A stretch of 1,727 bases of DNA from Naegleria gruberi. Taxonomy: Eukaryota. The translations under genes were made by a program, and so were the position numbers. Positions 2 to 1,683 of the stretch are shown piece after piece; position 1 is the stretch's first letter; every line of letters starts with the position of its first letter. Location of the stretch: NCBI GenBank assembly GCA_000004985.1, contig GG739337.1; one strand, written 5' to 3'. The notes under the pieces were generated by a model, which was not told the DNA's origin, made no database searches, and was given only the letters and a program-made list of their open reading frames with translations.

Positions 2-100
2 AGCAAATGTAAAATACGAAAGCAAACCCTGCAAGAATGGGAACCGAAATGGCATCCGGACATTGATGAGGAATGTTTCGTTGTCGAGGGACTAGAGTAA
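2..100 (+). CDS. Possible 3'-terminal coding segment of an upstream + strand gene (…SKCKIRKQTLQEWEPKWHPDIDEECFVVEGLE*). The strand and reality are uncertain.
   Basis: Frame 2 is open from the window edge to TAA at 98-100. Local GC is higher (~50%) than the flanks. The plus strand is purine-rich. A T-rich UTR-like sequence follows. The antisense frame is also open (114→1, MVTFPYSSPSTTKHSSSMSGCHF…), so the strand call is weak. Confidence 0.25.
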   Translation, partial: SKCKIRKQTLQEWEPKWHPDIDEECFVVEGLE

Positions 101-317
101 GGGAAAGTAACCATGGTTCGCATTCTGTTGCATTGCTATTGTTTATAATTGTATTATTGGTTTGTTGCCTTGTAGAATTGATTTCGTATATTGTTTCTAA
201 TAATTTGCTTGCAAGTTGATTCGTCATTCAAGAGATGTTGTCGTATTTTATTTTATTAATGAAGTTCAGGAGGTCACTGATAGACGGTGGGCAGTACCAT
301 GTATTCGTTGTTCCAAC

Positions 318-347
318 CAAATTTTTTTAGAGTCGAGCCAATTTTAT
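318..347 (-). repeat. Solitary inverted copy of the repeat-unit core (minus strand reads AATTGGCTCGACTCTAAAAAAATTTG)
   Basis: The reverse complement of 333-341 is GGCTCGACT, which matches the array core 9/9. The flanking A/T tract is arranged like the unit tail. About 20/24 positions match the unit. Confidence 0.5.
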
Positions 348-404
348 AAATATTTTAATATTATTTATTCTTCTGATGATATTTCGTCGCCACTTTATTC
401 ATCA

Positions 405-518
405 CTTCCACTTTGTGGATTCTGATGCATCATCTTCCTCATATTCTGATCCGCTGGTAGTATCGTCTTGGTAAATTCTTGGAAAGCTTTTGGAGTTTAT
501 GGTTTGATGGTTGGTATT
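405..518 (-). CDS. Possible 3'-terminal exon of a minus-strand gene (…NTNHQTINSKSFPEIYQDDTTSGSEYEEDDASESTKWK*), with a poly(A) signal immediately downstream
   Basis: The minus strand is purine-rich here. The frame is open from 518 down to 405. The stop TGA is at 404..402. A canonical AATAAA on the minus strand lies at 399..394 and a second at 369..364. The tail is acidic and looks like a real C-terminus. An alternative overlapping minus frame, 636..442, is also open. Confidence 0.2.
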
Positions 519-786
519 TCATCATCAACAGGATTTCCTCTTTTTGTTGCCAATTTCTTGGTTTCTTTGTTGTTGGAGATTTAGATGTAAGAAGAAGATT
601 CCAGTCAAAGAAACTTCCTGATGATGGGTTGTTGTATTAATTTTCTAGCCAACTGCCATGTTGTTCAGTTGCTTCCAAATACCAGCTTGTGATTGGACAT
701 TGTGGCCAGTAGACAAAACCTCTTAATTTTTTTAAATTTTAATTTAACGGTTTTTATCAGCCGAATTGTCAAAAGCAACGGATCTT

Positions 787-986
787 CTGTGGCTCGACTT
801 TGAAATTTTTTTGTCTGACCCGGCTCGACTTGTAAAAATTTTTGTCTGACCCGGCTTGACTTGTAAATTTTTTAGCCTGACCCGGCTCGACTTGGAAATT
901 TCGCAAGTTCTGCATAAAATGCCTCTGACTCGACTTTGAAATTTTTACTCCCTGACCCGGCATTTTACATCACTGACCACCGTCTA
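787..986. repeat. Tandem minisatellite-like array of about six contiguous 28-31-bp units. The consensus is CTGACCCGGCTCGACTTGTAAAAATTTTTGT. The array degenerates at both ends. Unit 4 carries a ~23-nt insertion (902-924).
   Basis: The units are 787-814, 815-845, 846-876, 877-924, 925-951 and 952-986. Each has a GC-rich head (CTGACCCGGCTCGACTT) and an AT-rich tail (GTAAAAATTTTT). The units abut with no spacers. Confidence 0.85.
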
Positions 987-987
987 G

Positions 988-1301
988 TCACTGAAAAATT
1001 CATTCAATCTTTGCAAGTTATTCGAAATGAAACTATTGAGCAAGCTAAACAGCAAATTGAAGTGGAGAGACAAGAATTGGAAATGGAAAAGAAAGAATGG
1101 GAAATGGAAAAGGAAAGATTATTGAAAATGAATCCAATTCAAGATGAAATTGTTTATTTAGATGTTGGCGGGAAAGTGTTTACAACAAGTATTCAAACTT
1201 TAAAGAATAGTTATCCAATTCCTGGATTGGAAAGTGAATTGCAAGGTAATTTCTTTACCAGTATGGTATTCAATTCTGGAAGGTTTTCTTTATTAAACGA
1301 A
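988..1301 (+). CDS. BTB/POZ (T1/KCTD-type, BTB_2) domain protein, 5' coding segment: coiled-coil lead-in followed by the first half of the T1 domain. The 5' boundary is uncertain.
   Basis: Frame 0 is open from 918 to 1301. The sense strand is purine-rich. The translation '...IEQAKQQIEVERQELEMEKKEWEMEKERLLKMNPIQDEIVYLDVGGKVFTTSIQTLKNSYP...FTSMVFNSGRFSLLNE' contains the T1/BTB_2 hallmarks ('LNVGG'-like 'LDVGG', 'MFSGRF'-like 'VFNSGRF'). The first in-frame ATG is at 1083. Position 936 is TTG, not ATG. Candidate acceptors are AG at 986-987 and 1015-1016. The exon may instead be joined to an upstream exon with the real start. The segment ends at an in-frame TGA (1302-1304) that interrupts the domain. 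Confidence 0.55.
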
Positions 1302-1302
1302 T

Positions 1303-1636
1303 GAGGGAAGAATTTTCATTGATAGAGATGGTCAACTCTTTGAATATATTATGGAATACTTGAGGAATGGTGAAATTCTATTGGATGATAACTTGCCAGA
1401 GCATCAAATATTGAAAAAGAAGATTCTGAGAGAGGCCATGTTTTATCGAATGGAAGATTTGATTATTTATCTGAGTGGAGATTCATCACAGCTTGATTCG
1501 AATAACTTGAAAATTGTGGAAGTGAACCAACAATTCAAGTATGTGAGTGATTTTGATGAGAATGGGTTGTTTTATTGGATTGGAAAGAAGCATTCTCAAA
1601 GAACAAAGAAAGATTCTTGGTCAAATCCGTATGAAG
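1303..1636 (+). CDS. Continuation of the same BTB/POZ T1-domain protein in the +1 frame: second half of the T1 domain plus a C-terminal region. Its reading frame is only restored after a 1-nt shift, so the gene is frameshifted (pseudogene or indel).
   Basis: Frame 1 is open from 1297 to 1641 and reads 'TNEGRIFIDRDGQLFEYIMEYLRNGEILLDDNLPEHQILKKKILREAMFYRMEDLIIYL...'. This matches the T1 consensus 'E.G.yFIDRDg..F..IL.YLR.G.l'. It ends at the donor GAAG|GTAAGTG at 1636/1637. Confidence 0.6.
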
Positions 1637-1683
1637 GTAAGTGAAAATTAACAATTTGTAAAAACTTCAAATTCTTCTTGCAG
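1637..1683 (+). other. Spliceosomal intron, 47 nt, phase 1
   Basis: The donor is GTAAGTG (1637-1643). The tail is pyrimidine-rich and the acceptor is TTCTTCTTGCAG (1672-1683). The 47-nt length is the modal short-intron size in Caenorhabditis. The reading frame continues without stops after splicing (…NPYEG|AGLVNIITDANYYCV). Confidence 0.55.

What the first reader, a model, noticed from the sequence alone, without database searches (positions are those of the whole stretch)
787..986. 30-bp tandem repeat array immediately 5' of the KCTD-like gene, producing spurious ORFs on both strands
Six abutting units have a GC-rich head (CTGACCCGGCTCGACTT) and an A5-6T5-7 tail. The unit size is CRISPR-like, but there are no spacers, so this is a minisatellite or subterminal-repeat array and not a CRISPR. 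The array sits where the promoter or 5' end of the downstream gene should be. The track ORFs 769-963 (-) and the TTG-initiated start of 936-1304 (+) are repeat-translation artefacts. The array could be clustered transcription-factor sites, a satellite, or the subterminal repeats of a DNA transposon.
Basis: seen in the sequence. Interest (0 to 1): 0.55.

Follow-up and report, generated by a model that had tools for sequence, protein, structure and literature searches.

The report
Transposon-end repeats interrupting a Naegleria gene
The 31-bp repeat array is one end of a 706-bp non-autonomous cut-and-paste DNA transposon that has inserted into the coding sequence of a BTB/KCTD-like gene of the amoeba Naegleria gruberi (or a very close relative); it is an ordinary mobile-element insertion, not a promoter, satellite or CRISPR.

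Summary
The array is real. It has a period of 31 bp, not 30. There are four full units (783-906), a 17-nt interruption, one shortened unit (924-950) and one truncated unit (951-961). One further unit lies inverted at 316-340. All copies sit inside a 706-bp segment (281-986). That segment is bounded by 15-bp terminal inverted repeats, TAGACGGTGGGCAGT and ACTGACCACCGTCTA (14/15 complementary). It is flanked by a perfect 8-bp direct duplication, GTCACTGA (273-280 and 987-994). No such configuration appeared in 5000 dinucleotide shuffles.

Removing the segment plus one duplicate (714 bp) joins two open frames into ...NEVQEVTEKFIQSLQ.... The Naegleria gruberi protein XP_002681424.1 (89% identical over 93 aa) reads straight through this junction without a gap, and its residues V44-T45 align to both copies of the duplication.

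The array is therefore the subterminal repeat cluster of a non-autonomous DNA transposon. The 8-bp duplication makes it most likely hAT-like. It sits inside a coding exon of a BTB_2 gene, not 5' of it. The host is Naegleria, not a nematode.

I could not retrieve other copies or the autonomous partner, because no searchable collection holds the host genome. This is an ordinary finding of low interest.

The parts
273..280 (.). Left copy of the 8-bp target-site duplication, GTCACTGA. It encodes V-T of the host reading frame.
   Evidence: Identical to 987-994. The only TIR+TSD configuration in the window; 0 of 5000 dinucleotide shuffles give a >=13/15 TIR with a perfect 8-bp TSD.
281..295 (+). Left terminal inverted repeat, TAGACGGTGGGCAGT.
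   Evidence: the repeat finder I10: 281-295 / 972-986, 93% complementary. 14/15 in the scan. Similarity continues weakly inward with indels.
316..340 (-). Single subterminal repeat unit at the left end, inverted relative to the right-end array (reverse complement TGGCTCGACTCTAAAAAAATTTGGT).
   Evidence: the repeat finder I1/I2. GGCTCGACTC on the - strand at 330-339. nhmmer - strand hit 324-340, E=0.006.
341..782 (.). AT-rich interior of the element, with no recognisable coding capacity. The element is therefore non-autonomous.
   Evidence: Longest stop-free stretch in the element is 68 codons. The six-frame concatenate has no relative among 5.8 billion proteins at E<=10. No Pfam family below E 0.04. 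No significant similarity to the host gene.
783..961 (+). Right-end subterminal repeat array. Units: 783-813, 814-844, 845-875, 876-906 (31 bp each), a 17-nt non-repeat insert at 907-923, a shortened unit at 924-950, and a truncated head at 951-961. Unit consensus is about TCTGACCCGGCTCGACTTGTAAATTTTTTNG.
   Evidence: Pairwise identity among the four full units is 19-27 of 31.
972..986 (-). Right terminal inverted repeat, ACTGACCACCGTCTA. It contains a fifth copy of the CTGACC motif that heads the array units.
987..994 (.). Right copy of the 8-bp target-site duplication, GTCACTGA. It again encodes V-T.
   Evidence: In tblastn, P0001 residues 44-45 (VT) align both at 273-278 and at 987-992.
231..280 (+). 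Upstream part of the interrupted host coding sequence (...NEVQEVT).
   Evidence: tblastn: P0001 residues 30-45 align to window 231-278. The BLASTP alignment is ungapped across the junction once 281-994 is removed.
987..1644 (+). Downstream part of the host gene: a coiled-coil region followed by a BTB_2 (KCTD/T1-type) domain.
   Evidence: P0001 residues 44-121 align to window 987-1220 at 96% identity. Pfam PF02214 BTB_2 scores 46-48 bits against a cut-off of 21.4.

Best explanation
Window 281-986 is a 706-bp non-autonomous class II (cut-and-paste) DNA transposon. It has inserted into the coding sequence of a BTB_2/KCTD-like gene of Naegleria gruberi or a very close relative.

Shown by the sequence and tool results:
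- 15-bp terminal inverted repeats.
- A perfect 8-bp target-site duplication.
- All repeat units confined to the element and pointing inward from both ends.
- No coding capacity in the element.
- A paralogous protein that reads through the insertion point.

Inferred:
- The 31-bp units are subterminal repeats, that is, multiple binding sites for a transposase supplied in trans by an autonomous relative elsewhere in the genome.
- Each unit carries two GC-rich boxes (CTGACCCGG and CTCGACTT) followed by an A/T tract. The CTGACC box recurs inside the right TIR.
- The 31-bp spacing is about three helical turns, which would place successive sites on one face of the DNA for cooperative binding of a transposase multimer. 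This is how the BED domains of Hermes bind its subterminal repeats and how Ac transposase binds the subterminal hexamers of Ac/Ds.
- The 8-bp duplication makes the hAT superfamily the most likely home (about 0.5-0.6). MULE/Foldback, P, Merlin and Zisupton are not excluded.

Consequence for the host: the insertion puts in-frame stops into the gene (the first at 423-425), so this copy is disrupted unless the element is spliced out.
For: - TIR: 281-295 / 972-986, 14/15 complementary.
- TSD: GTCACTGA directly abuts both TIRs.
- Chance: 0 of 5000 dinucleotide-preserving shuffles give a >=13/15 TIR with a perfect 8-bp TSD.
- Repeat units: all copies lie between the TIRs, five or six on the + strand at the right end and one on the - strand at the left end.
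- CTGACC occurs five times in the window, all on the + strand: four unit heads and the right TIR.
- Junction: deleting 281-994 (714 nt = 3 x 238) fuses two open frames into NEVQEVTEKFIQSLQVIRNE....
- Paralog: N. gruberi XP_002681424.1 (P0001) aligns ungapped across that junction, 83/93 identical. In tblastn its residues V44-T45 align to both TSD copies.
- No coding capacity or relatives for the element.
- Literature: hAT elements usually make 8-bp TSDs (PMC12730594). Hermes transposase BED domains bind subterminal repeats, and hAT ends are required well beyond the TIR (PMC10368747). A comparable hAT MITE is Mar: 610 bp, 11-bp TIRs, 8-bp TSDs, AT-rich, non-coding (PMC3517528).
Against: - No second copy of the element and no autonomous partner could be retrieved. 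The host genome is in none of the searchable DNA collections, so mobility rests on a single insertion.
- The 'empty site' is seen only through a predicted protein (a gene model), not through its DNA.
- hAT hallmarks are only partly met. The TIR starts TAGAC where the consensus I recall is YARNG (fifth base C, not G). The TSD GTCACTGA matches T2 but not A7 of the Ac/Hermes pattern nTnnnnAn, and does not match the Buster pattern nnnTAnnn.
- The array is strongly asymmetric: about six units on the right and one on the left.
- Transposase binding to the units is inference only.
Confidence: 0.85

Rival explanations
1. It is a transposon, but of another superfamily that can make 8-bp duplications. 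The candidates are MULE/Foldback (whose terminal repeats are built from tandem units), P, Merlin and Zisupton.
For: The TIR's fifth base and the TSD sequence do not fit the hAT consensus patterns. Zisupton also generates 8-bp TSDs (PMC12730594). From my own knowledge, not tested here: Drosophila Foldback inverted repeats are built from tandem units including a 31-bp unit, P elements make 8-bp TSDs, and MULEs make 8-11 bp TSDs.
Against: From my own knowledge: Foldback and MULE elements normally have long, symmetric TIRs and 9-bp TSDs. Here only 15 bp are inverted at the tips and the left end has a single unit. P-element TIRs start CATG, and Merlin TIRs start GG. hAT is by far the commonest 8-bp-TSD superfamily, and TIRs beginning TAG/CAG are typical of it.
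Confidence: 0.3
2. It is a minisatellite or a cluster of transcription-factor sites that arose in place in the promoter or 5' region of the BTB gene.
For: The units are regularly spaced, have GC-rich boxes with A/T tracts, and lie upstream of the BTB domain.
Against: The array is enclosed by TIRs and a TSD. An inverted unit sits at the opposite end of the same segment. The sequence on both sides of the segment is one continuous coding sequence in the paralog. The array is therefore imported, intragenic DNA and not a promoter.
Confidence: 0.04
3. The 714-bp segment is a spliceosomal intron, either ancestral and lost in the paralog or a transposon-derived 'introner', and the gene is intact.
For: The inserted length plus TSD is a multiple of three. 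The TSD begins with GT, and the right junction reads TAG|T. Some in-frame cryptic GT..AG pairs exist, for example 301..987. Non-autonomous hAT elements such as Ds can be spliced from transcripts (my own knowledge).
Against: No GT-AG pair removes exactly 714 nt. The only junction-spanning pair, 273..987, is 715 nt and shifts the frame. The cryptic donors (GTATTC, GTTGTT) are poor compared with the window's clean intron GTAAGT...TTGCAG at 1637-1683. At 700 nt it would be far longer than typical Naegleria introns (median 80 bp in N. lovaniensis, PMC6125883).
Confidence: 0.05

Closest known systems
Non-autonomous hAT elements of the Ac/Ds type (e.g. maize Ds1, about 400 bp)
   Same: Short internal sequence with no transposase. 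Short TIRs beginning TAG/CAG. 8-bp TSD. Repeated subterminal motifs needed for transposase binding. Insertions into genes (PMC3260210 abstract; PMC12730594).
   Different: Ac/Ds subterminal motifs are hexamers scattered in both orientations at both ends (my own knowledge). Here a composite 31-bp unit is tandemly arrayed, almost only at one end. The TIR sequence is unrelated. Membership could not be tested because no transposase is available.
Hermes (hAT) subterminal repeats bound by BED domains
   Same: Multiple short repeats concentrated near the tips. One copy lies within the right TIR (RE-STR0), as CTGACC does here. The ends are asymmetric. The target is 8 bp (PMC10368747).
   Different: Hermes STRs are interspersed, not a phased 31-bp tandem array. 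The Hermes target pattern nTnnnnAn is only half matched by GTCACTGA. Binding is not demonstrated here.
Mar / Vege hAT MITEs of Drosophila willistoni
   Same: 600-900 bp, AT-rich, non-coding, 11-12-bp TIRs, 8-bp TSDs, often in or near genes (PMC3517528).
   Different: Mar is documented in many copies and with a relic full-length element. Copy number and parent are unknown here. The Mar TSD pattern nnnTAnnn is not matched.
Drosophila Foldback (FB) elements
   Same: Transposon ends built from short tandem repeats, including a 31-bp periodicity (my own knowledge, not tested).
   Different: FB has long, roughly symmetric inverted arrays and 9-bp TSDs. Here the left end holds one unit and the TSD is 8 bp.
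Introner elements (transposon-derived introns of Micromonas, Aureococcus, dinoflagellates)
   Same: A short non-autonomous TIR/TSD element sitting inside a coding exon, with a length plus TSD divisible by three.
   Different: Introners carry or create exact splice sites so that excision at the RNA level restores the ORF. No such GT-AG pair exists here.
CRISPR array
   Same: Repeat unit of about 30 bp.
   Different: No spacers, a eukaryotic host, and units degenerate in a tandem head-to-tail arrangement. It is not a member.

Membership tests
Class II cut-and-paste (TIR) DNA transposon, non-autonomous | Terminal inverted repeats at both ends | tested here: met
   281-295 / 972-986, 14/15 complementary.
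Class II cut-and-paste (TIR) DNA transposon, non-autonomous | Target-site duplication of fixed length directly flanking the TIRs | tested here: met
   GTCACTGA at 273-280 and 987-994, 8/8. 0 of 5000 shuffles give the TIR+TSD combination.
Class II cut-and-paste (TIR) DNA transposon, non-autonomous | A related site without the element (empty site) | tested here: met
   Met at the protein level only. XP_002681424.1 reads NEVQEVTAKFIQ without a gap across the junction, and V44-T45 align to both TSD copies. The paralog's DNA was not retrievable.
Class II cut-and-paste (TIR) DNA transposon, non-autonomous | Several copies in the genome with independent TSDs | not testable with these tools
   No collection holds the Naegleria genome. 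The metagenome scan gave only single chance hits in unrelated contigs. The viral and prokaryote scans were negative or unrelated.
Class II cut-and-paste (TIR) DNA transposon, non-autonomous | No intact transposase ORF | tested here: met
   Longest stop-free stretch is 68 codons, with no protein or Pfam relatives.
hAT superfamily | 8-bp TSD | tested here: met
   8 bp is the usual hAT length (PMC12730594). It is not exclusive: Zisupton also makes 8-bp TSDs.
hAT superfamily | TIR beginning with the consensus YARNG (recalled from my own knowledge) | tested here: inconclusive
   TAGAC matches 4 of 5 positions; the fifth base is C, not G.
hAT superfamily | TSD pattern nTnnnnAn (Ac/Hermes) or nnnTAnnn (Buster) | tested here: inconclusive
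   GTCACTGA has T2 but G7, and has AC at positions 4-5. A single insertion cannot define a consensus.
hAT superfamily | Autonomous partner encoding a hAT transposase (BED finger, DDE/RNase-H fold, hAT C-terminal dimerisation domain) | not testable with these tools
MITE | Short (under about 800 bp), non-coding, with TIRs and a TSD | tested here: met
   706 bp.
MITE | High copy number | not testable with these tools
   As above.
Foldback-type element | Long inverted terminal arrays of tandem repeats at both ends, and a 9-bp TSD | tested here: not met
   One unit on the left against about six on the right, and an 8-bp TSD.
Introner element / spliceosomal intron | A GT-AG pair whose removal restores the uninterrupted reading frame | tested here: not met
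   No GT..AG pair of 714 nt exists. The 273..987 pair is 715 nt.
CRISPR array | Identical repeats separated by unique spacers of similar length | tested here: not met
   Units are head-to-tail without spacers. The host is a eukaryote.
BTB_2 / KCTD-type gene (host gene) | Pfam PF02214 above the gathering score | tested here: met
   48.1 and 46.1 bits against a cut-off of 21.4.

The most novel reading that the evidence does not exclude
The element is removed from the pre-mRNA through cryptic sites near its ends (for example donor 300|301 with the TAG| acceptor formed by the right TIR plus the first base of the TSD, which keeps the frame). It would then behave as a newly gained, transposon-derived intron, and the BTB gene would stay functional. 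This would be the first transposon-driven intron gain seen in Heterolobosea. A weaker version: this is a young, still active hAT-like family in an otherwise very transposon-poor genome, with an unusual helically phased 31-bp composite binding array.
Probability: 0.05. Interest if true: 0.55.

Novelty: new member of a known kind. Interest (0 to 1): 0.2.

Why it matters
The value is mainly for annotation. The two ORFs over the array should not be called as genes. The BTB_2 gene model at this locus should be drawn across the insertion and flagged as disrupted or a pseudogene. The 706-bp segment should go into a Naegleria repeat library.

Naegleria genomes are repeat-poor: 5.1% repeats in N. gruberi (PMC6125883), and 0.28% TEs by another pipeline (bioRxiv 10.64898/2026.06.24.734286). 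A clean, apparently recent insertion, with a perfect TSD and near-perfect TIRs, suggests that a cut-and-paste family has been active recently in this lineage. The termini could be used to look for the active transposase. That would be of some practical interest for an organism with few genetic tools.

Tried and rejected
1. Other copies in public DNA.
- The unit head CTGACCCGGCTYGACTT in metagenome contigs gave 120 loci, each with one match. Nearly all are GC-rich prokaryotic DNA. The one AT-rich locus (L117) shares only 19 nt with the window.
- In viral contigs the head gave 2 single hits. The tandem pattern GGCTYGACTT-N19-23-GGCTYGACTT gave 14 loci, all unrelated repeats in phage or giant-virus contigs.
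- The 26-base two-unit pattern gave 0 hits in viral and in prokaryote genome contigs.

2. Other copies through annotated proteins. A concatenate of all 31 stop-free six-frame segments of the element, searched against 5.8 billion proteins, gave nothing at E<=10.

3. Genomic context. The look-up of encoding contigs for P0001 and for two window ORFs returned 'not on record'.

4. Captured gene fragment. A weak antisense resemblance (NPVDDEI against NPIQDEI) between the element interior and the BTB gene is not significant by blastn, tblastn or Pfam.

5. Structured RNA. Rfam gave only a sub-threshold miRNA hit at 1215-1270, outside the element.

6. Introner or intron reading. There are no exact splice sites.

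7. Literature. A search for the TIR and unit strings found only unrelated primers. No paper in the library describes individual Naegleria DNA transposon families.

8. Upstream ORF 2-97. It has no database relative.

Full report
**Observation.**
- Tandem Repeats Finder reports 791-901, period 31, 3.6 copies, 86% matches.
- The repeat finder reports copies spaced 31 nt apart.
- Anchored on the (T)CTGAC head, the units are 783-813, 814-844, 845-875 and 876-906 (31 nt each). They are followed by 17 nt of non-repeat sequence (907-923), a 27-nt unit with a 4-nt deletion in its head (924-950), and a truncated head (951-961).
- The 10-mer core GGCTCGACTT with up to 2 mismatches occurs six times against 0.66 expected, and 0 of 200 shuffles reach six.
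An nhmmer profile of the unit confirms five plus-strand copies, one partial head and one minus-strand copy (324-340, E = 0.006). Nothing significant lies elsewhere in the window.

**Anatomy around the array.**
- The inverted-repeat list contains the pair 281-295 TAGACGGTGGGCAGT / 972-986 ACTGACCACCGTCTA, 14 of 15 complementary (I10).
- The eight bases immediately outside each arm are identical and direct: GTCACTGA at 273-280 and at 987-994.
- I scanned for any perfect 8-bp direct repeat abutting a >=13/15 inverted 15-mer pair. The real sequence gives exactly this one configuration, and 5000 dinucleotide-preserving shuffles give none.
- Every repeat unit lies between the two arms. The right end has the array and the left end has a single unit in the opposite orientation, so the units point inward from both ends.
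- CTGACC, the start of the unit head, occurs five times in the window, all on the plus strand: four unit heads and once inside the right terminal repeat.
- The 706-bp segment has no stop-free stretch longer than 68 codons. A concatenate of all its stop-free six-frame segments has no relative among 5.8 billion proteins. It has no Pfam match of note, no significant similarity to the flanking gene and no Rfam family.

**The insertion site.**
- Deleting 281-994 (714 nt, a multiple of three) fuses ORF 216-425 and ORF 936-1304 into one open frame...FYFINEVQEVTEKFIQSLQVIRNETIEQAKQQ....
- A search with that reconstructed protein found one close relative: a 127-aa predicted protein of Naegleria gruberi, 96% identical over the part it covers. 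It is XP_002681424.1 / EFC48680.1, NAEGRDRAFT_63461.
- BLASTP aligns it without a gap across the junction: NEVQEVTAKFIQSLQ against NEVQEVTEKFIQSLQ, 83/93 identical overall.
- In tblastn against the uninterrupted window the alignment splits. Residues 30-45 map to 231-278 and residues 44-121 map to 987-1220. V44-T45 are therefore used twice, once on each copy of GTCACT. That is the expected signature of a target-site duplication, and the paralog serves as an empty site, though only at the level of a predicted protein.
- The alternative boundary does not hold. TCACTGA is nearly palindromic and could extend the inverted repeat outward, but that would leave no duplication and would predict an empty site (GAGG|AAAATTC) that does not encode the paralog's EVTAKF.
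- The downstream sequence encodes a BTB_2 (KCTD/T1-type) domain: PF02214, 46-48 bits against a cut-off of 21.4.
- The array is therefore not 5' of the gene or in its promoter. It is inside an element that interrupts sequence that is coding in the paralog. The insertion places stops in frame, the first at 423-425.
- The host is Naegleria, not a nematode. The window's 35% G+C matches the value reported for N. gruberi (PMC6125883).

**Mechanism.** The insertion structure above is shown; what follows is inferred.
- In cut-and-paste elements the transposase cleaves at the TIR tips, but it usually needs additional repeated binding sites in the subterminal few hundred base pairs.
- For hAT elements this is documented. 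The BED domains of the Hermes octamer bind short subterminal repeats concentrated near the tips. One repeat lies within the right TIR, the two ends are asymmetric, and other hAT elements need 150-200 bp of each end (PMC10368747). Ds elements share TIRs and subterminal repeats with Ac (PMC3260210 abstract).
- By analogy, the 31-bp units are the transposase-binding platform of this element. Each has two GC-rich boxes, CTGACCCGG and CTCGACTT, and an A/T tract.
- The 31-bp period is about three helical turns, which would put successive boxes on the same face of the helix. The A/T tracts may add intrinsic curvature.
- The element encodes nothing, so the transposase must come in trans from an autonomous relative.
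- The perfect TSD and 14/15 TIRs suggest a relatively recent insertion, later than the duplication that produced the paralog.

**Superfamily.**
- The 8-bp duplication points first to hAT, which usually generates 8-bp TSDs (PMC12730594). Mar is a good size and shape analogue: 610 bp, 11-bp TIRs, 8-bp TSDs, AT-rich, non-coding (PMC3517528).
- The finer hallmarks are only partly met. TAGAC matches four of the five positions of YARNG (a consensus I recall). GTCACTGA matches T2 but not A7 of nTnnnnAn, and does not match nnnTAnnn.
- Zisupton also makes 8-bp TSDs. From my own knowledge, so do P elements and some MULE and Merlin elements. Drosophila Foldback ends are built from tandem units including a 31-bp one, but with long symmetric arrays and 9-bp TSDs.
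- I therefore give 'non-autonomous TIR transposon whose subterminal repeats form the array' a confidence of 0.85, and 'hAT' about 0.5-0.6 within that.

**Rivals.**
- A home-grown minisatellite or promoter cluster is contradicted by the TIR/TSD frame, by the inverted unit at the far end, and by the continuous coding sequence in the paralog.
- An intron or introner reading is contradicted because no GT-AG pair removes exactly 714 nt. The pair that uses the GT of the TSD and the TAG| at the right junction is 715 nt and shifts the frame. In-frame cryptic pairs exist but have poor donors.
- CRISPR is excluded: there are no spacers and the host is a eukaryote.

**Limits.** I could not see a second copy or the autonomous partner.
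- The metagenome scan with the unit head returned only single chance matches.
- The viral and prokaryote scans were negative or unrelated.
- Contig look-ups for the paralog and for window ORFs found nothing on record.
- Literature searches found no description of individual Naegleria DNA transposon families, only bulk figures: 5.1% repeats in N. gruberi (PMC6125883) and 0.28% TEs in another pipeline (bioRxiv 10.64898/2026.06.24.734286).
- I could not check whether the family is already in Repbase or Dfam.

**Verdict.** This is a new member of a known kind, an ordinary transposon insertion that disrupts a gene copy. Interest is 0.2. The most novel reading not excluded is that the element is spliced out as a newly gained transposon-derived intron (probability about 0.05).

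Noticed in passing
window 1246-1310: The BTB_2 reading frame switches near 1302...FSLLNE* in one frame, then GRIFIDRDG in the next. Either there is a weak 40-nt intron at 1266-1305 (GTATTC...GAG), or a 1-nt frameshift makes this copy a pseudogene. The frameshift-corrected peptide MVFNSGRFSLLNEEGRIFIDRDG aligns well with two metagenomic BTB_2 proteins. Pfam scores (48.1 against 46.1 bits) do not decide between the two.
   Followed up: partly
window 1215-1240, compared with P0001 residues 118-127: The N. gruberi paralog XP_002681424.1 ends ...CYPILDWKVN, which matches the window's other frame (LDWKVN at 1222-1239). The paralog therefore carries its own 1-nt frame change, and the annotated 127-aa protein is probably a truncated or pseudogene model.
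   Followed up: partly
window 1637-1683: A clean short intron, GTAAGT...TTCTTGCAG (47 nt). The frame stays open afterwards (AGLVNIITDANYYCV) to the end of the window, within a C-terminal region (FDENGLFYWIGKK...SWSNPYE) that has no Pfam match in the part visible here.
   Followed up: no
window 1072-1118: An in-frame 21-nt tandem duplication (2.2 copies, 92% matches) encodes KKEWEMEK twice in the coiled-coil region upstream of the BTB domain. It is also present in the paralog.
   Followed up: no
window 2-97 and 97-232: An open frame...QEWEPKWHPDIDEECFVVEGLE, ends at a good donor (GA|GTAAGG at 97). Splicing to the AG at 231-232 would join it in frame to DVVVFYFINEVQEVT, so it may be an upstream exon of the same gene. 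It has no relative in the protein database, and the paralog's N-terminus (MFPHSPSK...) is absent from the window.
   Followed up: partly
window 273-280 / 987-994: The target site GTCACTGA contains the near-palindrome TCA(C)TGA. The paralog differs from it at the last base (codon GCx for Ala against GAA for Glu), a plain substitution and not an excision footprint, because no extra residues are present.
   Followed up: partly
window 1215-1270 (-): A sub-threshold Rfam hit to mir-1545 (22 bits against a gathering score of 78, E = 0.066) inside coding sequence. It is almost certainly chance.
   Followed up: no
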